Shown here: in pieces, positions 12,621 through 29,619 of the stretch
Position numbering within the stretch: position 1 is the first letter of the stretch
How the letters are laid out: the number at the start of each line of letters is the position of its first letter
Origin: Prorocentrum cordatum
Lineage: Eukaryota
Length of the DNA: 64,000 bases
Assembly: GCA_963575745.1 (NCBI GenBank)
Contig: CAUYUJ010000015.1
Span: 558,001-622,000, forward strand
Direction: 5' to 3'
Position numbers and translations under genes: made by a program
The notes under the pieces: model-generated
The model's input: only the letters and a program-made list of their open reading frames with translations
Told to the model about the DNA's origin: nothing
Database searches by the model: none

Positions 12621-12743
12621 TCGGGCAGGGCCTGCAGGCGGCGGGCCTCGTCGAAGCCCCGCCCACGGCCCCCGAGATCCAACGAGCCTTCTGCAAGGAA
12701 CTCGCTGCTCGAGCCCGCGGCGAAAGGCCTCGGACGGCGCCCC

Positions 12744-12976
12744 ACTTTAAGGGTAGCTCTTTGGGAGATGTTATAGAGGATCGGGAGTATAGCCCGCGCG
12801 CCGTTGCCTTCGGCTCAAGGCACGCACGCCCTGTTTGCCCGGACACTGCGAGTGTTCGCTATGTGCTGGAAAGATCATTACATCGATCTTATCCTATCTT
12901 ATCCGTCCACTCCCCATACCGAACCAACACAGCATGGCATTGGACGCTATTTGGTTTACCATAGTCATTTCAGATT
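12744..12976 (+). repeat. 5' LTR (233 bp)
   Basis: Aligns without gaps to 28610-28842; I count 10 substitutions, all transitions. Confidence 0.93.
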
Positions 12977-12991
12977 TGGTAGCGGGGCTGG
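12977..12991 (+). promoter_or_regulatory. Primer-binding site, probably for initiator tRNA-Met
   Basis: TGGTAGCGGGGCTGG abuts the LTR and is complementary to a tRNA 3' end ...CCCCGCUACCA; it shares TGGTAGCG with the yeast Ty1 PBS. Confidence 0.75.
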
Positions 12992-13369
12992 CCGCACTCT
13001 CGCGTGGTCAGTTCTTGCTCTTCTTATCCTCACGCTATCCGGCACGATCTTCGTGACCAACTACCACCCTGCGCCACCACTCCAACTACATTTACGATGA
13101 TCAATTCAAGAGCACGAAGCAACACGAGAGGTACGACGTCTAGACAACAACATTGGTACCATATACGCTTCATCACTACGCTACTACCAACCGCTCGGCA
13201 ACGAGCCAAAAGCGCAGTACTTGAAGCAGAGGCGGGGAGACCCGCAAGATAAAGCGCCTCGTAGACTTGACAAGGCGCTACAAGCCCTACCCCAGCGCGG
13301 CAACGCGCCCGATAACCACCCATATCTTCACAACCTTGGGTTGGTTATCTTCGCCATCATACGGTCTGC

Positions 13370-14745
13370 GCTGGGGGCAGCAATCGGACACATGCGCCGA
13401 GGAGACAATAGCACAGATGGGCAAACACATGGCCCATACTGGGACCCTCCAGGCAACGCACCTTTCCGCGAATACGTTTATGAGGTCAACGCGTGGCTTA
13501 ACGTCACAATCGGACGCATGACGCCACAGGCCCAAGCAGCCGCCATACAACGCGGCCTGGGTGGCCTAGCGAGGACACCTCGCCATGAGGGTACCACTTG
13601 ACATTATAAACTATGGTGCGGAAATCGATGATGTCCATTGATGGCCACACCGACCCAGCAACCTACACTATGTTCTTCTTAAGCATGAAGTTCGAACGCC
13701 TGGAAGATGAGCGCCAGCTCACTTCAGGCACGCAGCTCATCGACTTGCATGTGCCTCACGGAGAACGAATCGATGTAACCCTCACTCGGTTTGAGATGGC
13801 CCGTCCTGAGGCACAGTCGGCGGGGCTTGACCTTCCCAACTTCCAACTGCGCACTACTATCCTATTCCGCGCCCTAGGCGTTGGCAACCAGCGAGCCACG
13901 CAACTCTTACAGCCACTCAACCACCAAATGCCCCGACACACAACAACAGTATGATGAGTTGTGAGAGGATGCGTTCGATAGGCCATCTGTCAGAACGGCC
14001 TCCTGGCAACATAGGATCAGTGCTTGGAAGGGGAAGGGAAACTGGCAGTGGAAATTTCTATACTACCTTAACCACTGAAGCTCAGCCTGGCAACGGGCCC
14101 TCAAGCATATGGGCCGACGATCCTGGAGAGTCTACTGCCCTACTAACAGGGGATCGATCACAACCAAGCTGGGCAACCAGCCCTCCTCCTAGAGAACCTC
14201 AACCACACCGTTCCCTAAGGGGTGAGGCGAATCCCCTAAACGACGGCGTATCCACCTACCTAGGTAATGACGATTTCGACTCCGGCACCGACACCGATAC
14301 CATATCATCAGATGGTATCGAACCCCTAGATTGGTCAGATACCATGCAAATGGAAGGGGACAATCAGCGTGCCGAACACCTGTTCTGGTATTACAACAGG
14401 CAAAGCGGAGGTGGAGGAGGTTCACACGAAAACCGGTGCGTCGTGTTAGGAGGAGGATACGGAGGAGCTTCAAAGGAAAAGGTAAAGGCAAACGGGGTCG
14501 CCGCAGGTTGAATGGACGAGGCATCTCGGCTTTCCTCCAGAGGCTTTCAGATGATCGGTATGATGAGATATTTTTGCGGGGGGAAAGGCCGTGGGAAAGG
14601 CCGTAGGGATACCCCAGGCAAAGGTAAAGGTAGGCGGGGAAGCCCGCGAGGTAGAGACGGCCAGATCCTAAAGTGCCACGAGTGTGATAGTACCGATCAT
14701 CTTGTACAGGATTGTCCAGCGAAGGGAAATGGAAAGGGCACATCG
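13370..14745 (+). pseudogene. gag: Copia gag-like region, frameshifted, with CCHC zinc knuckle at 14674-14715
   Basis: PYWDPPGNAPFREYVYEVNAW N-terminal block, GKG-rich basic tract, and CHECDSTDHLVQDC (CX2CX4HX4C). Confidence 0.8.
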
Positions 14746-14768
14746 ACCGAAGTCCATTTCGGCTCAAG
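14746..14768 (+). other. DinoSL-like relic inside the Copia element
   Basis: ACCGAAGTCCATTTCGGCTCAAG versus ACCGTAGCCATTTTGGCTCAAG: 2 substitutions and 1 insertion. Confidence 0.65.
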
Positions 14769-17433
14769 TGAACCATCTATTGAAGATCTGAGCCTCCAAG
14801 ATTTCAAGGCTGTGGAACAGGTATTTTTCACTTGGGCTAGCAGTATGGACAATTTGGACGAGCTCGAGGCGTACGGCCATGGACTGTACGCGTACTACCT
14901 CGAGTACCTCCGCAGGTTTGTTCTCGGAAATATCGAGCTTACGCCTGTGGAGAATGGAACGCTGGGAAACCAGCCCTTATCTTTCTTCGACTGGATGTTC
15001 GGTAACCCAGGCAACATCATTGCCTACGAGAGCAGCGACGAGGAGATCACTCTTGAGGCCTCGCCTTCGGAGGTTGACCAAAATCTTCGACATCAACCCG
15101 ACCTTATGCCTGGAAACAGGCCCACTCCAGTATATCCTCCAAATTATGGTGATCTGATGGAATTAGAGTCTCAAGCATTCACCGTGGGCGTGCCAGGGAA
15201 CCCATACGTACCACCTGGCATGCTCGCTCCAGGCGAGTACGGACCGCACGCGATACTGCAGACTCATGCAGATGCACGCTGTACTGGTCGTAGCATATCC
15301 CGAGAGTCAAGAGAGTGTCGAGAGTGGCCACATGATGCTACAAGACACCGATGCCTGTGACGACTCGGAGTTAGTGCTAGCGGCCCTCACTCTCATTGAC
15401 AGCGTGCACCCTGAGGACGTGCAACGACATGCGTGGTGTTCCAGGGGGAGATTGGCGCCAAGCCCTCGAAAGGGCCATCTCCATGCGCGGTCAGGCTCTC
15501 CCTCCGCCGGGATGGGGTCTCCAGGCGGCGGGATTACAGCCCCACCACACGGCCATGCGAATTGTTATCGGGCAGCCTACACATGACTATGATCATTTCG
15601 AGGTGCACGCTATGCTCGGTAACGAGCCTGAGCCGACTACCGTGCCGCCGACGCCGGGACAGCCAAGCGATGCTCAGACGCTTGTACAGCAGGGAAACCT
15701 GCCCGTCCCGACTGGACCAATGACCGCCGTCATTGGCAATCCTATGTCAGAAGATGAAGAGGGTGATGGATGTGGGATGTGCGAGGACGAGACCACCATC
15801 CTCATGATGGAAGTCAATGGTGAAGACGAGGAGGTGGATTTCAGCCCCGACAGTCCTGACACACCACCACCCGCACAAGAGCCAATTATGCCAGACTCCA
15901 GTCAGCAGGGAGACCTGCCTGCCCAAGATGCGCCGCCTGCGGCCCCGCAGGAAACCCCGCCGGCTCCTGCTCAGGCTACGTCGGCGGCATCATCTGATGA
16001 ACATGCCAGGAGGTCTCGCTCGCATCCACGCCTTAGGGACGACCCTCACCCTCAAGCACGGTTCCCACGCGAATGGAGGCAAGCAGCCCCATCAGAGCAT
16101 GCCTCTCGACGAGGGGGTCAGTTGCTCGCCTACAACGACCCTAGGCGTCAAGCGGGTGAGCATTCTGCTTTTGGAAAAGGCAACCCAGCCTACAGGGATG
16201 CCCAAGGCAGGCCCATCCGGGGGGCAACCAGCTCGCGACGAACATTCGTCGTCCTGAGATAGAGGCAGTACGGACTCAGCTGCGGACCATCATTGCGGCA
16301 CGCAAGCTCTACAGGCCCAACGCAGTCTGCGGTCCGTGCTCAGAGCCATTCCAGGAACACAGGCCTGGGTGTCCTGTAGGTCTCAACGAGGGCTTGAGCC
16401 CGAATAGAGGCCGCACTCCTGCTAAGGAGGGTCATCCACCGTTGGTTCCTATGACTCAAGCAGAGATCGACGAGATCAACCGTCGTCTCGGAACCACGGC
16501 TCACAGGAGCCCTATGGCCGAGGAGGTCCAGCCTCCGAGGGGACTTGTGTCTATGACCCAGGAAAAGAAAGATGCGTTCAATCGTCTTCCTGGAATGCGG
16601 GGAAACCCGCCTGGCGTCTCCAGTCAGGCCCACCAGCCAGAGATGATGGATGACGATGAACAGAAGGCTCAGCGAGCCGCGGCAGATGCGGAGCGCAGGC
16701 GAGTGGCAGACGAACGCACCCGCGAGGCAACTCGCCAAATGCTGCTGGAGCCACAAAAGATCTATATGAAGGGGGCAAGGAAGCCCCCACTCCAACCGAA
16801 GGCCAAGAGCGAAACACGTGCACCCAGGACGCCTTCGGGGGAGAGACAGAAACGTCGGCCCGCTCAGAGGAACTCGGGTTAGATGTGCAGATGGAGAGGC
16901 CCCTTTCGGAAGTGCCGAAGTCACCGACTCGTGCAGCTCTTGCGCAGAGACCCGACTCTAGGCAACAACCTCAGGACTCCGTGGAGATCCGCAGACGACA
17001 GCCTAGCCGCAGCGGCTCTATCGCTGGCAAGGCCAAGGCTTTCGAGCGCACAGGGTTTACTCCTACGCCGGCCTCGCCTGTGGCGACACGCTCCAAGAGG
17101 TCTGAGGAAGGCGCTCTATCTAGGGGCACCTGGGTGCCTAAGATCAAGGGCAGCGCCAGTCGAGAAACACTGCGGGGAAACCCGCCAGGCGCTGCAGCTG
17201 CAGCATCCTCCTCCTCAGGAGCCGCAGCCTCCTCGGTGACAGAGGCTCCTTTGCGGGGAAACCCGCCAGAGGATAAGCTGCATCACCCAGAGGATACTTC
17301 CTTTACTAGCGGGAGTCAGGCGTTAATCAGTGATCGGCGTGCCCTGCGGAATCTTCCACCGATACGCTCGGTGGATGAGGCATTCATGGAGAGCTGCAGG
17401 CAGAAAGGTGTTGTTCCGAGAGGTAATCATACA

Positions 17434-18172
17434 CTCCAGCAGCTTAGTAAATGCCTCAACAGGATCTGCAGACACGCGCCTGACAGACCACACAATGCAG
17501 CGTGGAGCCTTGAGACGTTCGACGATCATGATGGATGGATCAATCTCGATGAGCTCGTACGCGAGTTTCCGCGGCACAACGGACGTACGAGACAGGACGG
17601 GCACAACCCGAGACTGGATGAGGCCAAGATCATCGCCGAGACCTCCTACGACAGAACGGTTGACCAGATGGCTGCCATCATGATGGCGATCGTCCGCGTC
17701 CGCGAGTCGGACGGTGAAGAGAAGCAGCGTCTGCAGTTCAAGGTCCTGGTGCGGGATTCTGGCAAATCCGACATATTCATCCGTGCCTCGCAAGAGCACT
17801 CGTGGACGCTCAAGGCCCCTTGGTCGTTGTACAAGTACATTGTACTGCGCGACAATCCTGCCGGGAGACCGGCCCCATGCCCCGAGGTTGCCATGCACGG
17901 CGCACGATGGATGGCCTCTGAGGGCCTTTCTTGTCGCAAAGAACACAACACCAAGAAGAGAGGGACTGGCCGGTCACACATCCACTTTGTTCCAACGCTT
18001 CGTCGTCGCGGCGTGCAGAGTGGATGGGACCCCGACTCCGAGATCGTTATCTTTGTGGACTGGCACCAAGTCCTGAAGGACGGGATCGAATTTTGCCGGT
18101 CCGACAATGGGGTTCTCCTATCAGAAGGAAAAGACGGCAGGCACTATTGAGCCGTATTATATTACACACGTG
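17434..18172 (+). CDS. TPT1: Tpt1/KptA-like NAD+-dependent RNA 2'-phosphotransferase domain (in ORF 16885-18150; tail frameshifted into 18107-18697)
   Basis: LSKCLNRICRH, DGWINLDEL, KQRLQF, IRASQEHS, MHG, EGL, RSHIHF, SG, IFVD, FCRSDNGVLLSEGKDG and GTIEPYY occur in canonical order. Confidence 0.85.
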
Positions 18173-19765
18173 GAAGAATTTTCCACGGGAAAGCAAAGGC
18201 GGAACCCAGAATATCTGGGCAATCGCCTTGCACGCGTCCCCACTGCCATAATGACGGCCCCGAGCAGGTGGAACACTGTGGGCAGTGCTAGTATCAAGCA
18301 CAGATGGTCTCTTGACCGAGAGGCTAATGAGCCTCATACGGTTCATGGTCAAAGAGAGGTAGGAGACCATTACAGCCCAACAGCGCTGGGAAACAAGCCC
18401 GAGATCCACCAGATCCTCATGATCAACGAGAGTGAGGCAGGAAGCGCGGCTCCAAGCCGTGCTCCAAGCCAAGGGCCTAGTGCCATATCTTGGCAGGTCC
18501 TCAGCACCTCAGATTTGGATCAGATCGCGGCTGCTCTAAATCCTGAGCAGGTGGAACAGCTAGCGGACAGACTGTACCAGCAAGATCCCTGGGCCGCAGG
18601 TCAGGGAGCTATGTCCGCCATGGTGACGCGTAACCGCCAGGCCATGCAGGGAAACCTGCCCGTTCATGGATTCAGAAACGACATGCCCGAACCGTAGGGA
18701 GACCCGCAAACGTTCGGCCGCATCTTCGGAGAGCCTGCTCGATTCGAGCAGATGCCAGGGAGCCCCTCGCATAGCATGCACACACCGAGGGGCATGACCC
18801 CAGTGGCGACACCACCAGCACAGTCTCCGTTCGGGACCCCTGGTCGGTCTGCCACGCATGGCATTCTCATGGAGCGGATCGCCGCGGCCAGAGCTGAGCA
18901 TGGCACAGCTCTTCTGAACATGATGCCACCTGGCACGCCAACGAGTCTGCAGGGAAACCTGCCCGGCACTCCAGTACACCACCGACCTTTTGCTGGCCAA
19001 TCTACTGCTGCTGGAGTGCCTGATGACTACCGCGCAAGGGTGGCAGCTGCGGTACAACAGGTGCAGAGTCACAACCTTCCCCACCCGAGCGGTCAGAGGT
19101 GGAGGCCAGCCTGGTCCTGGGAGCCAGAGGGCCCGAACCCACGTCACCCTGCTCGGCAACGAGCCTTTTTTATCCCGGCCTTCAATGCTCATCCGAGCAT
19201 GGCTCAGGGCCAGAGGCCAGCGCCATCACCAATGGATCCGCCACTGTACCCAGATGGGTCTAGAGTCCCGAACAGATTTGTTCGCGAGACGGCGGATCAG
19301 CTTCATAGCCTCACGAATGTGCGCTGCAGTGATCAGTCCATGCATCCGCACATGGCTTTCATGGCTGCACCGACAACGCCAGAGGTGGCCGTCCAGCCCA
19401 CTGCCCATTCGATATCATCAGGCAGTAGGGGAGTACCAGACTACATCAGGCAGACGTACCACACTCAAGAGGCGTGTTTTAGGCGCAGGCAGGCAGTACA
19501 GAGCGTACGTGACCAAGCACGTGCAGCCGCACTTGAGGTCGTGAGGAACAGAGGCTCACCCATGCGAGGAAACTCGCCAGCCGTGTCGCCCGCAGCCTCC
19601 ACAACGGCAGCTCCTCCAGCAGTGGTTGCCGTAGCGCCGGAGGTACTGGCTCCCGCAGGAGATCCTCCAGCTGCTTTCCTGGGCTCCGAAACAGTCCTGG
19701 AGCAGCAGCGGCGGGTGTACCCTAGGGCGGCAGACGTGGAAATCTACACTGGGATGGAAGACACC

Positions 19766-19924
19766 TGCGCGGCATGCCTCGAGGAGTTTCGTCCGAGGGA
19801 GAGCATTTACCGCTTGAGGTGCAACCATCTGTTCCACGAGGAGTGCTGGAACTCGAATGTGGTGGGCCATGCTGCGAATCAGCGAGAAGGAGATCCTCGG
19901 CAACCAGTATGTGCTATCTGCCGA
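19766..19924 (+). CDS. RING-H2 (C3H2C3) zinc finger within ORF 18752-20803
   Basis: CAACLEEFRPRESIYRLRCNHLFHEECW...CAICR. Confidence 0.9.
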
Positions 19925-20809
19925 GCGCCAGGCATCATAGCGCCATCGTTTCCATGGACCAGCTCTTTCACTCAGGCCCCCGAACAGGCAGCGAGGGAGC
20001 TGCGGGAGTTGAGGAGCATGGTGGAGGACATGATAGCCAGTATGCTGGACAGGCAGACAGCACAGTCCCAACAGCGGGGAAACCCGCCGGAGGAGGTGAG
20101 GACGCCGATGGAGACGGGATACTTCGACCAGCCTATCCCGATGACGGCGCCACAGCAGGAAAACCTACCTAATACCCCACCTGCGTCGATTCCTCCAACT
20201 CATTACGAGCCTGGAGTCGGGCAGGTTGCTCCTCCAATGTCACCCCGAGGTGGGGGTGGGACCGAGCTTCCAATAGACCCTGAACAGCTTCGAGAACTGC
20301 GTGCTCGCCGCTTCCAGACCCAGATGGAGAATGCGCACACCACGTTCATGCTGGACGCCGATAATCCTGAGAGCGAGTTGTTTGATCTCTCAGATTCTTC
20401 AGTGGTGACAGCGGCAACAGCAGTCAGGGCCGTCGAGCTCTCAGCAACGAACTATGAGTTCGACGAGCGGTTGCAATACAGGGATCACCTTACGAATGAG
20501 GGATTACAGGACATCACCCTTCATTCGTACTTGACGCTGACGCGGCGCACTACCCGCGAACAGTACACGAGCATACGCGATGAGCATGCCAACTGGCGGG
20601 AGGAACAGGGCGCTCAAGCCCAGAACGTGCCGCACTTCCAGTACATCGACCTGGCACGTATGGCCGCAGGAAGGCCAGGTGCCAGCACGACGCGGGGAAA
20701 CCCGCCAAGGAGCACGACCGAGATGCGGGGAAACCCGCCAGACAGCGCAGCCGGCACTTCAGAGACAGTGCACATCAAGCAGCCTAGTAAGACCTTTTCT
20801 TGAGGATGG

Positions 20810-21240
20810 TGGAAACTCAATCCTCATAGACGCGGGCTCGAAGAGTAACATAATGGGAGAAAATACGAGCCGCAAATTCGTCCAGGCTGCTGAGGCACAT
20901 AATCGTCCTTGTACGTTTGAACCTCGTTCTCGTTTGAACATCAACGGGGTATGCGAGGGGTCGGCCCCAGCTGATACCGCGGGCACCTTCAGCATTGCCT
21001 GCGAGTACCAGGGTTCGACCCAGCTCGACTCGTACAAGACTAATATTGTGTCAGGCTGTGGCAAGGACCTGCCAGCTATCCTGGGCCTCGACAGTATGCA
21101 GGACAAGCGCGCTATCATTGTGCTCGAACGAGGCCAGGAGAAGCTGACATTCCCTGGGAAGGGACAGGTCAAGATGGAACTCCCCGAGGGCTTCAAGACC
21201 ATGCCGACAACGAAGTTGCCATCAGGACATATGTCAATCA
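20810..21240 (+). CDS. Retroviral-type aspartic protease domain (ORF 20580-21722)
   Basis: ILIDAGSKSNIMG catalytic motif, flap-like INGVCEG, and ILGLDSM. Confidence 0.8.
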
Positions 21241-23111
21241 GGCGTGATCGATTCGGAGCCGCGGGGCAACCCGCCTCGAGCACAAGTACAACATCGTTCC
21301 AGACGGTGCTGACAGGCGAGCCGCCCCCTGCGCAAGAGCGCCAACAAGTGCAGGGATACCTGCCTCAGGGGTTGCTCGCGACGCTCGCCATGGCGACGAT
21401 GAGAGGCGACAGCATCGATGATCTGGAGACGTTCGATTGCTTCGTAGCCAGGACACTGGCCCAGCATGGCGGACTTGCACCCATGGATGCTGCGCGGCCC
21501 CGCCGGAAGATAGTGATGGGATACACGAACCATGAGCTGCAGACGGTCAACGACGCAAGGTCGAAAGGCCCATTGAAGCAGTTGGTGGATAATCCATCCA
21601 TGCTGGCCGCATTTGCGGGGCAATCCGCCTCTGAGGCTACCGCGCGCTGCAGTGCTAAGCTCCAGCATCTGAGGGAAGCCCAGATGCTGGCAGACGTTGC
21701 AGGCGCATCTTCTTTATCTTGAAGATGGCAGGGCGACGCTGGCCTTTCGTCGCCTTGCCTGATAGCCGAAAGGCCAGGGGGTAACAAGGACAGCGGGGCA
21801 ACCTGCCACAGTAAAAGAGCTTTCGTCATCGAAGATGCGAGAGAGGCTTGCGCTGACCTCCGTACCCGAGGTTATATTTGTGATCGCATTTCCCACAATA
21901 AGCTCATGACGACTGTGGGCACAGATTAACTGGGTGCGGTGATCAGTGGGGGCTATACTCCAATATGGGTCAGTACCCCGGCTGACTGGTACGTACGAAC
22001 CCCAGGACAGAGAGTAGCCCCACACTGGTCGCGCATTCAAAACCTTCTGACAAAGGCCAAGAAGCTCCGCATGAAAATTATAGCGTTTGGCCCCCCAGGA
22101 TACGTTTGGAAGTTATCCCCAAAACGTGATACTCTGGAAGATCTTAAGTTGACGGTAGTACGGATGCGGTTATGTCATTTCGGTATTATGTTTAATATGC
22201 AAGACAATACACCGAGTGGTACCTATATGCAGGTAGCCACATCAATACCGATCAGCTCTAAGTTGTGGGCATGTACGTGCAAACTGGCGATACCACAACA
22301 TGTGTTGGATTGGTACGGCCAAACGGTACGACATGCAGAATGGCGAGCCCAGACACGCATCACACTTATCCGTCACCTCAACGACAAAATCCTGGGAAGC
22401 AACACTACGCACGGAAACGTGCCGATATACTTGAACACCTATACACGTACGGATCACAACATACATCACTATGTGACGACCAATAAAGGAGGACCGAAAT
22501 GGTCTGATGTCATCCGACGTGTAACGACCAACCTGGGTACCAATGCGATTATTCAGGATATCGCAGTAGCCGATCAACCAACAGGATATGATTGGCATGC
22601 ACGACTACCTACAGGGATTGCCAACATCAGTACACGGATGCACTGGCAGCCCGAGGAACCGGTCATGCTCGGAAACGAGCCTACTCAATCACCACAGAAA
22701 CCCAGACGCGTCATCATAGATGACTGCCCCTCTCCCCTCCCGACTCTGGCGATTGAAGCAGGTACCCACTCATCCACGACGATGGGCGCACAGACTGGTG
22801 AACAAGACGAGCAAGTCTTACCTACGGAGTCGCGTATCAAACAGAAGCAAAGGCTCAAAGCCGAAAAGGAGGCAGGCATCAAGCCTCGCCGCATCAAAAA
22901 GCACGTTGAAGATGGAAACGATGATTGCGGTGACGACTTGTCAGGACTCGGACAGGATCTCATGGCGACCTGGAGCACTGACGTCCCTGTCGAGCTGATA
23001 AGCTCAGATGAGGAAGATGACCTGTTCCTTACCCTCCCCACATCTATGCCCGACACACACGCGGACATATATAGCATAGTAGCTACTCTATGCTATGGTC
23101 ACAATAATTGC

Positions 23112-23745
23112 GTGGATATGTTGGAGCTTTGCGGGGGTGAGGGTGGTATTTCAGAGCTTGCCTTCTCAAGGGGCTTCTCCTCAGGAGGCAACTTAGACAA
23201 GACAACATGCGTCGACCTGGGAGATCCCTCGGTGCAGCGAGCTGTAGACCACTACTTCGCAGCATGCCACGTACGAGTAGCCATACTACAGCCCAGTTGC
23301 CGCACCACAGGACCACCATCCTACTACAACTACAAAGCCAACCATAACACTTGGGAACAGCATCATAAAGAAGATTTGTCACACATAACTTATTGTGGCA
23401 AAATAGCTGTTACTCAAGATAATGCACGGAGGTGGTTTATACGCGAACAACCCACAGGAACATGGGTGGATGATATTTCCCCATGGAAAGAACTTGCCAA
23501 CCGACCACATATCACAACCGTACGCATCGACCAATGTGCGACGGGACTTAAAGATACGGCTGGTGACTATATCAAGAGGCCGACAAATATCACCAGCAAC
23601 GACGAGACGATTCTTGAACCCTTTGAGCGACTCAAATGCAACGGTCAGCATGCGCACGCACAACCGTGCAACAGGGAGCTTTCACTGGCACAAAAATACA
23701 CTCGACGACTGCAGTCTGCCTTTGTGGAAGCCGTCTATTTGGCGA
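23112..23745 (+). CDS. Divergent C5-DNA-methyltransferase-like domain (in ORF 21939-23945)
   Basis: MLELCGGEGG (motif I-like), LQPSC (IV-like), REQP (VI-like), DQCATGL..KRPT, CNGQHAH, AQKY. Confidence 0.6.
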
Positions 23746-23898
23746 AAGCCATCGACACCACGCGCGGAGACGCGCCTACACGCACTGCGCATGCTTACCC
23801 TGCTGACCTTCCTGATCAAGCTGAACCAGGAGAAGGTATGAGACGCATCGGCGATCGTAGCATCCCAAAAGTGGCTACATGCCCAGCATGCATCGACA

Positions 23899-26271
23899 AT
23901 GTCCGAAAGGACAGTCCCAGCCACAACAGAGATCCTACACAGTGAAGGTATCATAACTCTATCTCTGTATACTGGCCATGTAAGGGACCCTACGAGAAGC
24001 AATGGTGTTAAGAACCACCTCGACACTGAGCCCGGCAAATGCCGTTTTGCCGAGCCGTTCAAACTCCCAGATGATCATGACCCCGAGGGCCGCAATGCGC
24101 CAGCTTGGTGGAAACCCTTACCCAGGCCTGGGGAGGGCCAAGCTTCGGCATCGGGTGGCCGTCAGGGCGCTCACGCCAGGCCACCGCGACCACGAGCCTT
24201 TGGGAACACTGATCCTACATCTGGCGCCAGCAGTTACGACATACTGCGAGACGCGCCCGAGCGTGGAAACACGCCCTCCGCGTCTTCAGGCGAGCCGCCA
24301 CAAGTAGCGGCCCGCCGCGGTCGCCTACAAGGCGTACCACCACCACCAGATACAGTTGACGAAGGAGACCGACTGCGGAGAGCCACGAGGAACCCTCTTA
24401 CCTCAGACGGGTCGGGGGCTCCACGACTGCCCGACTGGGCGAGATTTGACATCCAACACAGTCTGCAAAACCTCCGTAGTCACGAACCTCACGTAGTCAA
24501 AAAGGAACTCCGTAAACTGCACTTACGGTGGCATCATGCGAAGGAACCCAAGATGAGGCTGATCCTAGACAAAGTGGGATTGCACAACGTTCGATTAAAT
24601 ATGTTCGAAGAAATCTGTGACACATGTCGGGAATGTAGAGCATGGGAACGTCCAGGTAATTCTACGCTACCTTCCATAAGCCTTCCTGGAAATTGGCTTG
24701 ACGAAGGCGAAGTAGATCTCATGTTTTACAGGCAACGAACCATATTTCATATTATGGACCGACGCATCCGCCTGGCAGCAGGCCAAAAGATTTCTGATAG
24801 AGAACGTGACACTATACTCGACGCCTACCACTACTGCTGGATTGCCCATCATGGACCCTTCAAAGTCTTGTATTCAGATGGAGAAGGCGCCCTCAACAAT
24901 GACACTGCCAAGGCCACGATGGCGAACAAGGGTACGCCACTTCGTATCCGAGCGCCTGGCCAACACGCGATCTCGATCGAGTCACGCAACGGCATTCTTA
25001 GGGGTACTCTCCATATGATTGAGGAAGAACTGAACAGACACAACATCCCTGTTGTATTTACTAGAGTATTTGCTGAAGGCATCTTCGTCACCAACGCTTT
25101 CACGTTTTACCACGGAGCATCGCCATGCCAAGCACACACTGGGCGACAGCCCTCCTTTCTTCCTGACCTCGACACCCTTAACTTCCCTAAGGGACCCGAG
25201 ACGTCAGGCCACGAACGAGAACGCCGCGTGAGGGAAGTTAGCCTGGAAGCAATAACTCAAGCAACGGCGGTAGCTGAGACAAATCGTGCTCTCAGGGCTA
25301 AGACGGCCCCAGATGGTGCTCGCCTTTACTCAGCAGGGGACTCGGTCGACTATCACCGACCTACAGCCACTAAGGACGACCATGGAGGCTGGAATGGCCC
25401 GTTTCCTGTGATCCGTAACGTGCCTGAACGAGGACACGTCGTCGTCAAGGCAGGATCACGCGAGGTAATTGCAATGTACCCTGAAGCTTGCCACACGCTA
25501 TACATTGAATGCCTCCTTGCCGGGGAACTTGGCATGGACAACATGGCCATGCAAACCGTCCTTACATATGTGGCACACCTTGGCGCAGGGAAACCTGCCA
25601 AAGTCTTTGGCTATATTCCAGACTACAAGGGAAACCTCAATCTTTTGGACGACAGCAAGTTCCACCCGCGCGTGCATCTTGCACTGCAGTATCTCGTGCG
25701 AAATTATTTCCGAGTTGAACGTGTCGTAGCCGTGAGATTGGCCAAGAACGTGTCAAATTTACCCGCAGTAAAGTACGCCACCGGGTCTACACTCATCCAC
25801 TACGACAACGATGTTAACCCAGCCTTCCACTATTATGAGTGTGGGGGCACCGGCCTGAACATCTCTCAAAACACTGGTAGCACTCACTCCAGACTCATCC
25901 AGTGCCTGACGTCACAAGTTCCTTCCCTAGGAGTTCATGATGACCTTGCCAAGTATCAGCACTTGGGCACAACGTCTGGAGAACACGACCAGCCTGGAGA
26001 CACGCCTCCACCAGACACCCCAGGTGCTTCATCACCAAGTGAGGGTCGCCTGTCTACAATCTACGAAGACAGCGAGGAACATGACATCGAGGCTATGATG
26101 ATGGAGGAGTGGTACGATGAGTTACGTATGGACCTTCATCCCGCAACGGTTATCAACGATCATCTCTACTGCGTCCCAACAACTATGCTGCCCGACCAAT
26201 GTGTTTTGGTCTCAGCATCCGTGGACGAGGAAGATACCGTAGTGTCGGAGATGCTCGGAGACGAGCCTTAA
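23899..26271 (+). CDS. Integrase (HHCC zinc finger plus DDE core); ends in an in-frame TAA before RT
   Basis: LHLRWHHA...CRECRAW; VDLMFY, YSDGEG, IESRNGIL; WNGPFPV. Confidence 0.88.
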   Translation: MSERTVPATTEILHSEGIITLSLYTGHVRDPTRSNGVKNHLDTEPGKCRFAEPFKLPDDHDPEGRNAPAWWKPLPRPGEGQASASGGRQGAHARPPRPRAFGNTDPTSGASSYDILRDAPERGNTPSASSGEPPQVAARRGRLQGVPPPPDTVDEGDRLRRATRNPLTSDGSGAPRLPDWARFDIQHSLQNLRSHEPHVVKKELRKLHLRWHHAKEPKMRLILDKVGLHNVRLNMFEEICDTCRECRAWERPGNSTLPSISLPGNWLDEGEVDLMFYRQRTIFHIMDRRIRLAAGQKISDRERDTILDAYHYCWIAHHGPFKVLYSDGEGALNNDTAKATMANKGTPLRIRAPGQHAISIESRNGILRGTLHMIEEELNRHNIPVVFTRVFAEGIFVTNAFTFYHGASPCQAHTGRQPSFLPDLDTLNFPKGPETSGHERERRVREVSLEAITQATAVAETNRALRAKTAPDGARLYSAGDSVDYHRPTATKDDHGGWNGPFPVIRNVPERGHVVVKAGSREVIAMYPEACHTLYIECLLAGELGMDNMAMQTVLTYVAHLGAGKPAKVFGYIPDYKGNLNLLDDSKFHPRVHLALQYLVRNYFRVERVVAVRLAKNVSNLPAVKYATGSTLIHYDNDVNPAFHYYECGGTGLNISQNTGSTHSRLIQCLTSQVPSLGVHDDLAKYQHLGTTSGEHDQPGDTPPPDTPGASSPSEGRLSTIYEDSEEHDIEAMMMEEWYDELRMDLHPATVINDHLYCVPTTMLPDQCVLVSASVDEEDTVVSEMLGDEP

Positions 26272-26379
26272 TTACAAGAGCCTTGTCTTATCTCTCTATG
26301 CTCGACTACACCTGACGAGGGAAATTCTCTTGACAGTGATGAACATGGTCCTTATGTTGAGTTTTGTTTCACACCAGAA

Positions 26380-28215
26380 ATGTTAGTGGTAGTGTTGGAT
26401 CAGACCCAACTTGCACATTTTGAAACTGACATGGTCGCAACGATGAGAGCATATGTATCATCGGCTGCTAAACGTGCTGCGGTAGTCAAGGAAGACGACC
26501 TACTCACCGAAGCCGATATAGCAGCACACCCTAAAGAGGTTAGTGAAGTTTTGTACACCGAACTCAAGATCTGGCTTGACAACCGGTGCTTTGAGATGTA
26601 TGACCTATCTAAAGCTTCCAACATCATGACATCCAGATATGTATACAAGTGGAAGTTCGTGAAGGTAGGAACCGAGAACGTTAACACCATCCGTCTCAGA
26701 CTTGTCCTTCGCGGATTCATGGACACGGAGGCGTTCGATGTAGAAACCTTCTCAGGAACTGCTCGAAGACAGTCCCAGAGGCTCCTGGCAAGGGAGGCGG
26801 CATGTCATCCAGAATGGATCTTAGCATCTATGGATATCGACAAAGCGTTCCTCAAAGGTCTGACCTATGAGGAACTTGCTCATGCCACCGGCGAGGAAAC
26901 TCGCATGGTTTGCTTCACTCTTCCACCAGGAAGTGCCCATGTGCTTCGTGCACTACCAGGCTTCTCTTCTTACGATGAAAGCCGACACTGCCTCAGGTGC
27001 CTCAAGCCAGGAACGGGTACAAAGGACGCCCCAAGAGCGTTCTCCCTCAAGCTTCGTACGACTACACGAGCTAGAGGCCTCACACCGACAAGTTATGATC
27101 CTGAGTTTGAATTCAGTCAGGATCTGTTAGCGGCAAAACATGTCGACGATATCAACATGACAGGCCTAGAGAAAAACGTAGATGACTATGTACAACGTGT
27201 CGAACAGGTGTTTGGTAAAAGCAAGCTCAACAAACATTATTATACGAACTGCGCCGTTCGCTACACTAAGAAAAAACGAGGGGATGTGAGCATGGATCAG
27301 GACGAGTACATTAAACAACTACGTCCTACCACACACCCTGAGCTTACGGGAGCGGCGGCCGACGCCAAAGCTACCAAACTCATCACCGACATGTTCGCTA
27401 GCCTGCGAGAAGCTCTCGCCTATGCCCTTCTTACTCCAGTCTGGCTTATGGTGCACGTGGTCTCTCTCCAGAAGATCCAAGAGCCCACCAACTTACAAGT
27501 CAGACGACTGAATGCTGTGACGCGAAAGCTGATCAGCAGCCCGAAACGCATCACCTTCCCTCGGATGAAACCGACGAATGAAGTAGACATACACAGTGAT
27601 TCGGGGTATCGGAAGCTCACTGGGGAGGAGGACGATGAGACCAAGGGCTACGGCATTCGTGGGGCTAACGTATTACGGCGAGGAAACTCGCCTCAAGGCA
27701 AATCCGTCACTCACCTTTGCGACGGACGATGCAAATCACACCGACTGCAGGTGAGGTCCAGCTATGCCGCTGAGGCACCTGCAGCTGCACACAATCTTGA
27801 TGAATGTTATCCCACGCTCATCACTCTCCACGAGCTCAAGGCAGGGGCACTTGCTCCACGACAACTACGAGATATGCGTGAAGTTGGAGGCCCAGCTATT
27901 CAAGTATCCCTTACTATAGACGCTGAGTCTGTATACAAATCGCTATCCAGCAAAGATCTTAAGTTACCGACGGAACGGACTTTGCTGGGACATATCAGCT
28001 GGATACGTGAGCTCATGGATATAGGTATAGTGCATAACGCACAGTGGTGTAATATTAGAGACATGACCGCAGATGGGCATACAAAGGGGAGTATCAATCG
28101 GGAGCTGCTTTTGGAAGTGATGTCAGGCACTCAGTCATTTAAGTATGACGTGAAGCAGTTTGTTCCCTTTCGGGGTCCTGAGGACAGAAGTAAGCCTAAG
28201 TCGAATCAGTTTTAG
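26380..28215 (+). CDS. pol: Copia-type reverse transcriptase and RNase H
   Basis: SRYVYKWK, RLRLVLRGF, DIDKAFL, LKPGTGTKDAPRAF, HVDD; RNase H HSDS, SSYAAE, IDAESV, ADGHTK. Confidence 0.93.
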   Translation: MLVVVLDQTQLAHFETDMVATMRAYVSSAAKRAAVVKEDDLLTEADIAAHPKEVSEVLYTELKIWLDNRCFEMYDLSKASNIMTSRYVYKWKFVKVGTENVNTIRLRLVLRGFMDTEAFDVETFSGTARRQSQRLLAREAACHPEWILASMDIDKAFLKGLTYEELAHATGEETRMVCFTLPPGSAHVLRALPGFSSYDESRHCLRCLKPGTGTKDAPRAFSLKLRTTTRARGLTPTSYDPEFEFSQDLLAAKHVDDINMTGLEKNVDDYVQRVEQVFGKSKLNKHYYTNCAVRYTKKKRGDVSMDQDEYIKQLRPTTHPELTGAAADAKATKLITDMFASLREALAYALLTPVWLMVHVVSLQKIQEPTNLQVRRLNAVTRKLISSPKRITFPRMKPTNEVDIHSDSGYRKLTGEEDDETKGYGIRGANVLRRGNSPQGKSVTHLCDGRCKSHRLQVRSSYAAEAPAAAHNLDECYPTLITLHELKAGALAPRQLRDMREVGGPAIQVSLTIDAESVYKSLSSKDLKLPTERTLLGHISWIRELMDIGIVHNAQWCNIRDMTADGHTKGSINRELLLEVMSGTQSFKYDVKQFVPFRGPEDRSKPKSNQF

Positions 28216-28609
28216 TCTGTCCTTGTTGCCCCCCGCGGTCCAGTTTACCAGCACGGGCGCCTAATACAGAGGCGCCATCCTAGCTGCTCGGAAACGAGCC
28301 CTACTTTTCACGCTTGGCAACGAGCCTGTTCAGATTGATTCAGGCTATTTGCTTTATTACCTTTTGCCTGGAGAGGAATAGCCTGTTTGGCTTACCTCTA
28401 GCCGGGCCGACAGCCCTTTTGATGTCAAATGGGCTATCCTGCGCATGTGTGAAAGTGTTTTGCGTGGAAATTCGCCGGCGAAAAATTTCGCCCTACAGTC
28501 TGGTGTTAGGCCAGACTGTGCGCATTGTTTTTCTTGCAAACAGTTGCGCGCGCGGCCTTTCTAGAGCCTGACGGCTGCGCGGCTATACTCTCCGTCTCCT
28601 CCCCACCCG

Positions 28610-28842
28610 ACTTCAAGGGTAGCTCTTTGGGAGATGTTATAGAGGATCGGGAGTATAGCCCGCGCGCCGTTGCCTTTGGCTCAAGGCACGCGCGCCCTAT
28701 TTGCCCGGACACTGCGAGTGTTCGCTACGTGCTGGAAAGATCATTACATCGATCTTATCCTATCTTATCCGTCCATTCCCCATACTGAACCAACACAGCA
28801 TGGCATTGGACGCTATTTGATTTATCATAGTCATTTCAGACT
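28610..28842 (+). repeat. 3' LTR (233 bp)
   Basis: Direct repeat of 12744-12976, followed by GCCCC. Confidence 0.93.
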
Positions 28843-28847
28843 GCCCC

Positions 28848-29450
28848 CCCTCTTAAGGGGCCGAGTCGCCGTGGCCCCGCGCGAGGGCTTTGAGGCCCCC
28901 GGGGCCAGCGGGCGGGCCTCCGCATGCGCCCAGGGCGATAGGGTAGAACACGAGGGCGAAATTACCCTATCGCCCCCCGCTTCCGCCGGGGCCGCCGCGA
29001 ACGAGCTGTCGGCAGCGCGGGCCATTGTTTATGGTCTCCTGCGACATGCCGATCACTGCGGCTCGGACTTTCGGCTAGACACAGGTCTGCCGTTCCGGGC
29101 CAAGGTGTGGCCTCGAGCCCCAATTTCTTCAGACCGATGGGCGTGGCAGACGGTGCTCGCCCATGGATGGAAGGGGCAAGGGCGGCACATCTACGAATTG
29201 GAGATGCAGGAAGTGTTGGAGGCACTGAAATGGTTCGCTCGGAAGGCGGATCGGCACCACTCGCGCCTCGGCATTCCCATCGACTCCCAGGTGGTCCTCT
29301 CGGTGTGCGCGAAGGGGAGGTCCTCGTCGCGAAGGCTGAACCACCTGGTTCAGCGCATAGACGCACAGATTATCGCATGTAACCTCTACCCCTTCTACGG
29401 CTACGTGACCAGCAAGATGAACCCTGCGGATGCCCCCTCGCGACAGCGCG
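28848..29450 (+). pseudogene. C-terminal part of DIRS pol: second half of RNase H
   Basis: HIYELEM, IDSQVVL..AKGRSSS and YVTSKMNPADAPSR; the first catalytic motif ATDASESGGG is at ~11572-11601. Confidence 0.82.
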
Positions 29451-29619
29451 AGCGTGGGCGTCCGCCAGACCCCTCCGAGGAGGTTTGCGCAGCGCCCCCA
29501 GGTCGGCCTTCCGAGGCCCCGGGTAGGCTCGCTGTCCGACACGGGCGGCTGAGCGACCTGCCAGTGGCGCGCTCCAGACCAGTCGGCGGGGCAGTGCAGG
29601 TCTGTTGATGACGCCGTAA

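What the first reader, a model, noticed from the sequence alone, without database searches (positions are those of the whole stretch)
13193..28325. ~35 dispersed, covarying GNRA-tetraloop hairpins (GCNNG-GNRA-CN'N'GC) through the whole Copia element, on the sense strand only
Seen: perfect 14-nt hairpins start at 13193, 13232, 13295, 14168, 14961, 15108, 15614, 15689, 15905, 16597, 17172, 17253, 17860, 18646, 18949, 19151, 19564, 20074, 20692, 20725, 21261, 22409, 22667, 23762, 24261, 25585, 26253, 26891, 27678 and 28286. G-U-wobble copies are at 14085, 21615, 21793 and 28312, and a GATA-loop copy is at 21350. The inner NN takes ten different values (TC, GG, GC, TG, CT, AG, CG, GA, AC, GT), each complemented on the 3' arm. 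Loops are GAAA, GCAA, GAGA or GTAA. Copies fall in different reading frames (RGNPP/QGNLP/LGNEP, but AGKPA at 25585 and GEETR at 26891), inside the INT/RT/RH ORFs and in the UTRs, so a peptide repeat does not explain them. I saw no copies outside the element or on the minus strand. Established: GNRA loops are very stable RNA tetraloops, and dispersed hairpin packaging signals are known from ssRNA viruses. Inference: this is a selected structural code on the element RNA or ssDNA. It could serve as Gag packaging/compaction signals for a 16-kb genome, as self-recognition marks for the cargo enzymes, or as plus-strand priming signals replacing the missing PPT.
Basis: partly seen in the sequence, partly recalled or inferred. 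Interest (0 to 1): 0.92.

Follow-up and report, generated by a model that had tools for sequence, protein, structure and literature searches.

The report
Sense-strand GNRA hairpin code in retrotransposon
A 16-kb Copia-like retrotransposon, probably from a dinoflagellate, carries about forty small, covarying GNRA-capped hairpins on its sense strand, relatives keep them too, and they look like selected protein-binding marks on the element's RNA whose function is untested.

Summary
On the + strand of the LTR element (12740-28840) there are 31 perfect and 5 one-defect GCNNG-GNRA-CNNGC hairpins. There are none on its minus strand. Dinucleotide shuffles give 0.18 and synonymous-codon shuffles that keep the protein give 2.0. 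The two inner pairs take all four Watson-Crick types.

The hairpins are not peptide repeats, because they sit in three phases and in the 3' UTR. They are not 15-nt insertions, because there is no indel at five sites inside aligned protein.

Fifty-six related metagenome loci carry 75 such hairpins on the sense strand and 3 on the antisense strand. All carriers placed on the 19-row RT tree fall in one RT clade. Each lineage has its own stem flavour, and the middle pair can be Watson-Crick, G.U, A.C, C.C or U.U. Homologous sites keep the hairpin through compensatory changes, even where phase and peptide differ.

The defective copies in the window fit CpG decay of an old insertion (LTRs 95.7% identical).

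Best reading: a selected sense-strand RNA signal. It is most likely a multivalent, lineage-specific binding array for the element's own Gag/nucleocapsid, used for packaging or compaction. Binding and function are untested. The papers I searched describe nothing like it.

The parts
12740..28840 (+). Copia-like LTR retrotransposon, 16.1 kb, decayed copy with frameshifts and three in-frame stops
   Evidence: LTR pair; RVT_2, Tpt1 and RING hits; ORF pieces
12740..12974 (+). 5' LTR
   Evidence: 235 bp, 95.7% identical to 28606-28840
28606..28840 (+). 3' LTR
14671..14728 (+). CCHC zinc knuckle of Gag/NC in a Lys/Arg/Gly-rich stretch
   Evidence: Pfam zf-CCHC hits below the curated cut-off; CX2CX4HX4C read from the translation
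17437..18130 (+). Tpt1/KptA RNA 2'-phosphotransferase domain (cargo)
   Evidence: PF01885, E 3.5e-21
19760..19925 (+). RING finger (cargo)
   Evidence: PF17123/PF13639
26584..27229 (+). Copia-type reverse transcriptase
   Evidence: PF07727 RVT_2; homologues
13193..13206 (+). hairpin GCTCG-GCAA-CGAGC, perfect
   Evidence: leader or N-terminal extension
13232..13245 (+). hairpin GCGGG-GAGA-CCCGC, perfect
13295..13308 (+). hairpin GCGCG-GCAA-CGCGC, perfect
14085..14098 (+). hairpin GCCTG-GCAA-CGGGC, one U.G (CpG decay likely); homologous to L025 2137
14168..14181 (+). hairpin GCTGG-GCAA-CCAGC, perfect, phase 1 in the local ORF
14961..14974 (+). hairpin GCTGG-GAAA-CCAGC, perfect
15108..15121 (+). 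hairpin GCCTG-GAAA-CAGGC, perfect
15614..15627 (+). hairpin GCTCG-GTAA-CGAGC, perfect
15689..15702 (+). hairpin GCAGG-GAAA-CCTGC, perfect
15905..15918 (+). hairpin GCAGG-GAGA-CCTGC, perfect
16597..16610 (+). hairpin GCGGG-GAAA-CCCGC, perfect
17172..17185 (+). hairpin GCGGG-GAAA-CCCGC, perfect
17253..17266 (+). hairpin GCGGG-GAAA-CCCGC, perfect
17860..17873 (+). hairpin GCCGG-GAGA-CCGGC, perfect, phase 0, inside the Tpt1 domain
18385..18398 (+). hairpin GCTGG-GAAA-CAAGC, one G/A mismatch
18646..18659 (+). hairpin GCAGG-GAAA-CCTGC, perfect
18694..18707 (+). decayed copy GTAGG-GAGA-CCCGC holding an in-frame TAG; homologous to an intact hairpin of L025
18949..18962 (+). hairpin GCAGG-GAAA-CCTGC, perfect; homologous to L025 6364
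19151..19164 (+). hairpin GCTCG-GCAA-CGAGC, perfect, phase 0
19564..19577 (+). hairpin GCGAG-GAAA-CTCGC, perfect; homologous to L025 7053 with a different stem
20074..20087 (+). hairpin GCGGG-GAAA-CCCGC, perfect
20692..20705 (+). hairpin GCGGG-GAAA-CCCGC, perfect
20725..20738 (+). hairpin GCGGG-GAAA-CCCGC, perfect
21261..21274 (+). hairpin GCGGG-GCAA-CCCGC, perfect, phase 0
21350..21363 (+). GATA-loop copy GCAGG-GATA-CCTGC (loop decayed)
21615..21628 (+). copy with a G.T closing pair, GCGGG-GCAA-TCCGC
21793..21806 (+). hairpin GCGGG-GCAA-CCTGC, G.U at pair 3; lies between ORF pieces
22409..22422 (+). hairpin GCACG-GAAA-CGTGC, perfect
22667..22680 (+). hairpin GCTCG-GAAA-CGAGC, perfect
23762..23775 (+). 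hairpin GCGCG-GAGA-CGCGC, perfect
24261..24274 (+). hairpin GCGTG-GAAA-CACGC, perfect
25585..25598 (+). hairpin GCAGG-GAAA-CCTGC, perfect, phase 0 (AGKPA), integrase C-terminal part; kept in L001 as GCGGG..CCTGC
25992..26005 (+). hairpin GCCTG-GAGA-CACGC, one C/C mismatch
26253..26266 (+). hairpin GCTCG-GAGA-CGAGC, perfect, integrase-RT junction; L001 has GCGAG..CTCGC at the homologous place
26891..26904 (+). hairpin GCGAG-GAAA-CTCGC, perfect, phase 1 (GEETR), inside a conserved RT motif and without an indel
27678..27691 (+). hairpin GCGAG-GAAA-CTCGC, perfect, RT-RNase H linker; L001, L025 and L017 have GCGTG..CACGC there
28286..28299 (+). hairpin GCTCG-GAAA-CGAGC, perfect, 3' UTR
28312..28325 (+). 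hairpin GCTTG-GCAA-CGAGC, U.G at pair 4, 3' UTR

Best explanation
The hairpins are a selected cis-acting RNA signal on the full-length sense transcript (genomic RNA and mRNA) of a clade of Copia-like LTR retrotransposons, probably of dinoflagellates. The module is a GNRA tetraloop closed by G-C on a 5-bp stem. It is written into the coding sequence by codon choice, and sometimes by amino-acid change, about once per 400 nt.

Shown here: it exists, it covaries, it is strand-specific, it is made in place, it is kept at homologous sites, and each lineage has its own stem flavour.

Inferred: the array is a set of binding sites for an element-encoded RNA-binding protein. The simplest candidate is the basic, CCHC-knuckle nucleocapsid part of Gag. 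Many weak identical sites would then mark the element's own sense RNA for selective packaging and compaction into particles, as dispersed packaging signals do in ssRNA viruses. I put about 0.9 on 'selected sense-strand structure' and about 0.4 on the Gag/packaging mechanism.
For: Structure, not chance:
- 31 perfect hairpins against 0.18 in dinucleotide shuffles and 1.98 in synonymous-codon shuffles.
- The same holds in relatives with long unbroken reading frames: L025 16 against 1.12, L028 6 against 0.56, L001 5 against 0.35.
- Pairs 3 and 4 take GC, CG, AU and UA. 37 cells show a change on both sides, against 10.6 in shuffles. 98.9% of cells are paired, against 24-48% when the partner is slid.

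Not a peptide:
- Three phases are used in the window (27/4/2 of 33 in ORFs) and in L025 (16/4/5).
- Two copies lie in the 3' UTR.
- Homologous sites read AGQPA in L025 but QPGNGP or LQGNLP in the window.

Not an insertion:
- 26891 replaces GEKER of 11 homologues by GEETR without an indel, overriding a position that is E in at least 90% of rows.
- 27678, L025 7408, L001 2694 and L001 3543 also show no indel.

Sense-strand bias in independent data:
- 75 on + against 3 on - in 205,744 nt of 56 loci.
- 89 against 15 with pair 3 left free.
- In L025, whose 2653-codon frame is unbroken, 15 of 25 hairpins have a G.U, which would be A/C on the other strand.

Selection across relatives:
- 3 of the window's 6 integrase-RT hairpins are kept in L001 (60% protein identity). 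Two carry changes on both sides of a pair and one is A-U versus G.U.
- Between close pairs of loci, 5 of the 11 differences listed inside scanned hairpin windows fall on the free N or R loop positions. The other 6 are 1 alignment-end gap, 3 (loop G, loop N, closing C) in a probable chance match at L025 562, and 2 (loop N, closing C) in a hairpin that L012 has lost.

An element-specific reader is suggested by lineage-private flavours: TCACG (L028/L008), GCACG (L024), GCGGG/CCTGC (L025), and A.C, C.C or U.U middle pairs in other lineages.

Gag carries an Arg/Lys/Gly-rich knuckle.

Precedent: dispersed packaging signals with a shared loop and variable stems (PMC6281560; search listing and highlights only).
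Against: - No binding, structure-probing, RNA or particle data exist for this element.
- Gag sequence is available only for the window and L025, so co-variation of Gag with hairpin flavour could not be tested.
- Retroviral and Ty packaging signals known to me (recall) sit in the leader, not throughout the genome. Zinc knuckles usually grip unpaired G, which a GNRA fold partly buries (recall).
- In-context folding predicts only 25 of 36 hairpins to form (p > 0.5). The antisense strand still forms 18 of 36, so thermodynamics alone separates the strands only weakly.
- Hairpins with a mismatched middle pair need flanking pairs or a protein to be stable.
- A host factor could explain the shared GNRA cap equally well.
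Confidence: 0.4

Rival explanations
1. The hairpins are recognition marks for an enzyme rather than for Gag. The enzyme could be the element's own cargo (the Tpt1/KptA RNA 2'-phosphotransferase or the unassigned domain at 21930-23945) or a host RNA-modifying or repair enzyme. It would modify, repair or label the element RNA as 'self'.
For: - Tpt1 is an RNA-acting enzyme. It is present in both elements for which that region is available and which are rich in hairpins: the window and L025.
- In L031, an outgroup locus, GNRA hairpins stay at background (1 on +, 1 on -). Its ORF spanning the knuckle and the RING gave no Tpt1 hit.
- The GNRA loop places an RAC triplet at a fixed position.
Against: - Known Tpt1 substrates are internal 2'-phosphates or 5'-phosphate ends, not hairpin loops (recall).
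- The Tpt1/hairpin correlation rests on three loci.
- The domain at 21930-23945 has no Pfam hit, no PDB sequence hit, and only a poor model (pLDDT 52) with no fold match at E <= 0.001.
- Lineage-private stems are not needed for an enzyme that acts on the loop.
Confidence: 0.15
2. The hairpins serve general RNA metabolism through a host factor or through RNA-RNA contacts. Possible roles are export or stabilisation of a very long unspliced transcript, protection from decay or silencing, pacing of translation, or GNRA-loop docking that compacts the RNA.
For: - The GNRA cap and the G-C closing pair are shared by all lineages, while the stems differ.
- Sense-strand specificity.
- GNRA loops are known tertiary-contact modules (recall).
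Against: - A single host reader does not explain fixed, lineage-private stems and middle-pair identities. The lineages may, however, live in different hosts.
- No receptor motif was looked for or found.
- A 5-bp hairpin is no obstacle to a ribosome (established knowledge).
Confidence: 0.15
3. The hairpins act during reverse transcription. They could be pause or strand-transfer sites for RT on the RNA, or stable d(GNRA) hairpins in displaced plus-strand DNA. They might take part in internal plus-strand priming of a 16-kb genome that has no obvious polypurine tract.
For: - The sequence just upstream of the 3' LTR, as aligned, is pyrimidine-rich on +.
- In the laid contigs, some indel joints between family copies end exactly at hairpin borders: 15614, 16597, 18660. 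This is a weak hint. The tool warns about joints below 95% likeness.
Against: - RNA hybridised to minus-strand DNA cannot keep a hairpin, so RNase H-resistant primers are not explained (inference).
- LTR borders are uncertain, so 'no PPT' is not established.
- G.U-rich hairpins in an element with a long unbroken reading frame fit RNA better than DNA.
- The joints can also arise because hairpins are conserved islands in indel-rich linkers.
Confidence: 0.1
4. The hairpins have no function for the element. They are selfish 14-15-nt palindromic mini-insertions, as in Rickettsia coding genes, or a by-product of a templated mutation process.
For: - Several lineages repeat one identical hairpin many times: L028 10 copies, L025 GCGGGGCAACCTGC 8 copies.
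- L004 repeats about 12 nt of flank as well.
- Small indels lie near some sites in disordered linkers.
Against: - No indel at five sites inside aligned protein.
- At 26891 five bases of two conserved codons changed in place.
- The position is kept while the stem changes in a compensatory way.
- Strict sense-strand and GNRA bias.
- The window's flanks avoid extending the stem.
Confidence: 0.05
5. It is a repeated short peptide motif (xGNxP), and the palindromy is a side effect of codon usage.
For: - 27 of 33 in-ORF copies in the window read xG[N/D]x, and 34 of 36 are followed by C, which starts a Pro codon in that phase.
- All L028 copies read HGNVN.
Against: - Shuffling synonymous codons while keeping every peptide leaves 1.98 hairpins of 31.
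- Six copies are in other phases and two are untranslated.
- Residues 1 and 4 vary freely but only in complementary codon pairs.
- Homologous sites encode different peptides.
Confidence: 0.02

Closest known systems
Dispersed packaging signals of ssRNA viruses (MS2, STNV, parechovirus, HBV pgRNA; PMC6281560, search listing and highlights only)
   Same: Both have many short stem-loops spread through the coding genome that share a loop motif. Both are on the packaged strand only, and positions are kept among relatives.
   Different: Here the host is an LTR retrotransposon. The loop is a full GNRA tetraloop on a fixed 5-bp module. The density is about 1 per 400 nt. Each lineage has a private stem or middle pair. 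Coat-protein binding and an effect on assembly are untested.
Retroviral psi hairpins with conserved tetraloops (HIV-1 SL3 GGAG, MLV SL-C/SL-D GACG; recalled, not read here)
   Same: Both are tetraloop hairpins on genomic RNA read by a CCHC nucleocapsid. Three copies here lie between the 5' LTR and the conserved Met at 13392.
   Different: Psi is a single leader cluster of two to four hairpins. Here about 40 copies run through gag, the cargo, pol and the 3' UTR.
Phage lambda/P22 boxB-N peptide (recalled)
   Same: Both are a 5-bp stem capped by a GNRA-type fold, and boxB is read by an arginine-rich peptide. Variants are phage-specific, much like the lineage-specific stems here.
   Different: boxB has a pentaloop, one or two copies per operon, and an antitermination role. 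No arginine-rich peptide was tested here.
Rickettsia palindromic elements and other mobile hairpins inside coding genes (recalled)
   Same: Both are palindromic units inside ORFs that are translated into short peptides.
   Different: Those are insertions of about 100-150 nt seen as indels. Here the 14-nt units replace codons in place, without indels, at conserved positions.

Membership tests
GNRA-tetraloop hairpin (RNA structural motif) | Four-base loop G-N-R-A | tested here: met
   Of 60 perfect 5-bp/4-nt hairpins in the element, 32 have GNRA loops and every other loop occurs once or twice.
GNRA-tetraloop hairpin (RNA structural motif) | Watson-Crick stem supported by covariation | tested here: met
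   Pairs 3 and 4 show four pair types; 37 double-change cells against 10.6 in shuffles.
GNRA-tetraloop hairpin (RNA structural motif) | Sheared G.A fold in the RNA | not testable with these tools
   Needs NMR, crystallography or chemical probing.
Dispersed packaging signals | Many stem-loops with a shared loop motif spread over the genome, on the packaged strand | tested here: met
   36 in 15.1 kb on +, 0 on -; relatives 75 against 3.
Dispersed packaging signals | Positions conserved among relatives | tested here: met
   3 of the window's 6 integrase-RT sites are shared with L001. Several gag and cargo sites are shared with L025. Other sites are lineage-specific.
Dispersed packaging signals | Sequence-specific binding by the capsid protein and an effect on assembly | not testable with these tools
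   Needs binding and assembly assays.
Leader packaging signal (psi) of retroviruses and LTR retrotransposons | Confined to the 5' leader or start of gag | tested here: not met
   Only 3 of 36 lie before the conserved Met at 13392. The rest run to 28325.
Mobile palindromic insertions in coding genes | The unit appears as an indel relative to homologues that lack it | tested here: not met
   No indel at 26891, 27678, L025 7408, L001 2694 or L001 3543.
Peptide repeat / short linear motif | One reading frame, a conserved peptide, free synonymous codons | tested here: not met
   Three phases plus UTR copies; a synonymous shuffle destroys the signal.
Ty1/copia LTR retrotransposon | LTR pair and Copia-type RT (RVT_2) | tested here: met
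Ty1/copia LTR retrotransposon | Integrase upstream of RT | tested here: inconclusive
   Pfam gave no rve hit for 23842-26271. The ORF is homologous and collinear with the stretch upstream of RT in relatives.

The most novel reading that the evidence does not exclude
Each lineage of these retrotransposons carries a private RNA 'barcode'. The barcode is a GNRA-capped module whose stem, and above all its middle pair (Watson-Crick, G.U, A.C, C.C or U.U), is read by that lineage's own Gag. The element would then package only its own RNA and exclude competitors and parasites. This would be a self/non-self identity code written across a 16-kb coding genome, strong enough to override conserved amino acids.
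Probability: 0.25. Interest if true: 0.9.

Novelty: new variant of a known kind. Interest (0 to 1): 0.8.

Why it matters
How LTR retrotransposons choose their own RNA for packaging is poorly understood, and no dispersed hairpin code has been described for them in the papers I could search. This element offers about 40 identical, minimal, covarying sites. There are natural specificity variants in sister lineages, and in places RNA structure has overridden protein conservation. That makes a clean model for overlapping RNA and protein codes and for multivalent RNA recognition. It could also yield orthogonal hairpin-protein pairs as tools. Finally, it gives a simple sequence signature for finding this family in dinoflagellate-scale genomes.

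Tried and rejected
- RNA evidence: no RNA holder was listed for the stretch. The four runs laid were DNA contigs, so starts, ends, editing and expression could not be read.
- No whole genome is held for the window, so genome-wide density in host genes and other transposons was not measured.
- Earlier findings of this scan: none.
- Rfam: no family at E <= 1 on either strand of the element.
- Tandem pairing of hairpins (spacing <= 60 nt) is enriched only in L028 (5 of 9; 0 of 2000 random placements reached it). It is not enriched in the window (3 of 33, random mean 2.98) or in L025. I dropped it as a general rule.
- Stem extension: the window's flanks pair less well than shuffled flanks (-11.7 against -13.1 kcal/mol), so the module here is a bare 5-bp hairpin. 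In L028, L004, L001 and L024 the flanks do extend it.
- I first read 21930-23945 as a cytosine methyltransferase. Pfam gave only a sub-threshold DUF5956 hit (E 0.0011, 19.6 bits against a cut-off of 24) and no methyltransferase family. A PDB sequence search found nothing. The 7-sequence AlphaFold model was poor (pLDDT 51.8) and gave no Foldseek match at E <= 0.001. The guess is withdrawn.
- PMC5890265 (passages only) says Symbiodinium Copia elements lack DNMT domains.
- The idea that the lineages at 58-59% identity lack hairpins was wrong. They carry them with a mismatched middle pair.
- G.U copies in the window as selected wobbles: rejected in favour of decay (LTRs 95.7% identical; 4 of the 6 changes inferred in 14085, 21793, 28312, 21615 and 18694 sit in CpG).
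- Papers: PMC5776459 and 10.64898/2026.05.21.726589 (passages only) do not mention such hairpins. One literature call failed on term syntax.

Full report
**What is there**

The window holds a 16.1-kb LTR retrotransposon at 12740-28840. Its 235-bp LTRs are 95.7% identical. It encodes:
- a CCHC knuckle in a Lys/Arg/Gly-rich stretch
- a Tpt1/KptA RNA 2'-phosphotransferase domain
- a RING finger
- a Copia-type RT (RVT_2)

The reading frame is broken into about a dozen pieces, with three in-frame stops. This is therefore an old, decayed copy.

RT relatives that carry names come from Polarella, Symbiodinium, Prorocentrum and Amphidinium. The closest relatives (69% identity) are unnamed marine sequences. 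The host is probably a dinoflagellate, but this is not shown.

- GCNNGGNRACNNGC occurs 36 times on + between 13193 and 28325. It occurs once on - (11472) and once more on + (44492, arms not complementary). Shuffles of the window gave 3.1.
- In 31 copies both free pairs are Watson-Crick, and in 5 one pair is defective.
- Dropping the GC ends: of 81 GGNRAC on the element's + strand, 31 have four outer pairs. Outside the element the figure is 0 of 96. On the element's minus strand, 0 of 30 have even three.
- Dinucleotide shuffles of the element give 0.18, with a maximum of 2.
- Among all 60 perfect 5-bp/4-nt hairpins in the element, 32 carry GNRA loops. No other loop recurs more than twice.
- The base after the stem is C in 34 of 36. 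The base before it is G in only 3 of 36. The flanks pair less well than shuffled flanks. In this lineage the module is therefore a bare 5-bp hairpin.

**Structure, not peptide**

- Pairs 3 and 4 take GC, CG, AU and UA. 37 cells have changes on both sides, against 10.6 in shuffles. 98.9% of cells pair, against 24-48% when the partner is slid.
- Permuting synonymous codons while keeping every amino acid leaves 1.98 hairpins, with a maximum of 6.
- By local frame, 27 copies read xG[N/D]x, 4 read A-x-x-x-A, 2 are in the third phase and 3 lie outside ORFs.
- 28286 and 28312 are past the pol stop.
- 13193-13295 lie upstream of a conserved Met (13392). The frame there is open in relative L025 and shows conserved hydrophobic stretches, so 'UTR' is uncertain.

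**Made in place, not inserted**

- At 26891 the window reads GEETR where 11 homologues read GE-x-ER, with no gap. The change replaces an E that at least 90% of rows keep.
- 27678 (RRGNSP) aligns without a gap to RRGNTH, RRGDRY and others.
- L025 7408, L001 2694 and L001 3543 likewise have no indel against the window.

**Relatives**

One metagenome scan gave 56 loci, 205,744 nt in total.
- Hairpins with a G-C-closed GNRA loop and at most one G.U number 75 on the sense strand and 3 on the antisense strand.
- On an RT tree of 19 rows (6 loci were dropped for frame breaks), all carriers on the tree fall in one 13-row clade (support 93/96). The five rows at 39-44% identity and the long-branch row L045 have at most one copy each under the criterion.
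- Synonymous shuffles fail in relatives with long unbroken reading frames too: L025 16 against 1.12, L028 6 against 0.56, L001 5 against 0.35, L002 2 against 0.14, L024 2 against 0.18.

Each lineage has its own flavour:
- L028/L008: TCACG-GRRA-CGTGA, all read HGNVN, with bulged flanking extensions.
- L024: GCACG..CGTGC.
- L010: GCGCG.
- L004: GCAYG with about 12 nt of conserved flank.
- L025 holds an unbroken 2653-codon frame with Tpt1 and RING. It has 25 hairpins on + and 2 on -, mostly GCGGG-GCAA-CCTGC read as AGQPA. 15 of the 25 have a G.U, and some have UAAC or UCAC loops.

Lineages that at first looked empty carry the module with a non-Watson-Crick middle pair: A.C in L002/L003/L005/L023/L029, C.C in L006/L007, and U.U in L048. 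Pair 4 still covaries, and variable flanking pairs lengthen the helix. With pair 3 left free the count is 89 sense against 15 antisense.

**Homologous sites**

Against L001 (60% protein identity over integrase-RT), 3 of the window's 6 hairpins are kept:

| Window site | Window stem | L001 stem | Change |
|---|---|---|---|
| 25585 | GCAGG/CCTGC | GCGGG/CCTGC | A-U versus G.U |
| 26253 | GCTCG/CGAGC | GCGAG/CTCGC | two pairs changed on both sides |
| 27678 | GCGAG/CTCGC | GCGTG/CACGC (also in L025 and L017) | compensatory |

Against L025, hairpins lie at matching places in gag and the cargo region although phase and peptide differ. Examples are TT-AGQPA-SSVW against EA-QPGNGP-SSIW and AY-AGHPA-PQ against TS-LQGNLP-GT. 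The window's decayed 18694, which now holds a TAG, matches an intact L025 hairpin.

Between close pairs of loci, 5 of the 11 differences listed inside scanned hairpin windows fall on the free N or R loop positions. The other 6 are one alignment-end gap, three (loop G, loop N, closing C) in a probable chance match (L025 562), and two (loop N, closing C) in a hairpin that L012 has lost. Numbers are small.

**Decay in the window**

LTR divergence of 4.3% implies about 2% change per copy. Over 13 constrained bases, roughly three quarters of hairpins should survive (my arithmetic). Observed are 31 perfect and 5 one-defect copies. Further likely relics are 21615, 21350, 18694, 14634, 21447 and 24770.

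The defects at 14085, 21793 and 28312, and one of the two at 18694, are C-to-T or G-to-A changes inside CpG. The change at 21615 and the second change at 18694 are not in CpG. This fits methylated-CpG decay and argues against selected wobbles here. In L025 and L002, whose long reading frames are unbroken, the G.U and A.C pairs cannot be put down to decay so easily. The asymmetry there is lineage-specific: 9 G.U to 1 A.C in L025, and 6 A.C to 1 G.U in L002.

**Which strand and which molecule**

The GNRA loop, the G.U pairs and the 75:3 bias point to the sense strand. RNA is the natural reading, because the sense RNA is both genome and mRNA.

Energetics alone are a weak guide. Isolated hairpins fold at -7.2 to -9.3 kcal/mol, against -5.7 to -7.8 for their complements. 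In a context of +-75 nt, 25 of 36 form in sense and 18 of 36 in antisense. Plus-strand DNA is not excluded.

**Mechanism**

- Shown: a selected, position-conserved, strand-specific hairpin module with lineage-private identity.
- Inferred: private identities call for a reader that co-evolves with the element. The simplest candidate is Gag's basic knuckle region. A dense array of identical weak sites is what dispersed packaging signals look like in ssRNA viruses (PMC6281560, listing only). I therefore favour selective packaging or compaction of a very long genomic RNA, at about 0.4.
- Rivals: marks for Tpt1 or another enzyme (0.15), host-mediated export, stability or compaction (0.15), roles in reverse transcription (0.1), selfish or mutational origin (0.05), peptide motif (0.02).
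- The laid DNA contigs show that relatives at 80% identity or more occur in all four runs. Some indel joints end exactly at hairpin borders (15614, 16597, 18660). The tool warns that such joints are unreliable.

**Novelty**

Searches for GNRA or tetraloop with retrotransposon or dinoflagellate, for dispersed packaging signals with retrotransposon, and for Copia, RING or Tpt1 in dinoflagellates found nothing that describes this. Three papers checked by passage do not mention it. Supplements were not read.

I file it as a new variant of a known kind (dispersed cis-acting RNA hairpins), found in a retrotransposon, with function unproven.

Noticed in passing
window 17437-18130; L025 about 4980-5680: A Tpt1/KptA RNA 2'-phosphotransferase domain sits inside the polyprotein of a Copia-like element (E 3.5e-21). 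It is also present in relative L025. The literature searches run here found no paper on this. Why a retrotransposon would carry it is unexplained.
   Followed up: partly
window 19760-19925; L002, L004, L015, L024, L025, L031, L039: A RING finger is conserved upstream of protease/integrase in all lineages for which that region is available, including those without GNRA hairpins.
   Followed up: partly
window 21930-23945: A conserved domain (invariant LCYG..VD..ELCGG.G and LQP.CR..G in 7 sequences) lies between protease and integrase. It has no confident Pfam hit (only a sub-threshold DUF5956 match, E 0.0011), no PDB sequence hit and no fold match. Two of its six homologues come from a Pyramimonas transcriptome set.
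   Followed up: partly
L031 168, 1854, 4094, 10064, 10901 (+ strand): An outgroup lineage (43% RT identity) repeats a different motif five times on the sense strand: GCGGAGACCTCGACCGAGG. It folds into a longer stem-loop whose outer stem covaries between copies. Dispersed structured motifs may therefore be more general in these elements.
   Followed up: partly
window 12975-12992 and 28575-28605: A PBS-like TGGTAGCGGGGC follows the 5' LTR directly. The stretch before the 3' LTR, as aligned, is pyrimidine-rich rather than a polypurine tract. The LTR borders may be misplaced by a few bases.
   Followed up: no
L025 1-970: The end of RT is followed within about 280 nt by the gag-side homology of the same element type, all in one contig. 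This could be a tandem or circular form, or an assembly collapsed through the LTR. Contigs joining 28709 to 12855 were also seen in the laid runs.
   Followed up: no
window 11318-12964 and 28643-29608: Both flanks of the element hold GC-rich ORFs that look like remains of another retroelement (an RNase H-like stretch ending NPADAPSR, my reading). The Copia-like element seems to have landed inside older repeats.
   Followed up: no
window 692-808 (- strand): Two identical AAGTG-GCGA-CACTT hairpins 103 nt apart belong to a tandem repeat unrelated to the element.
   Followed up: no
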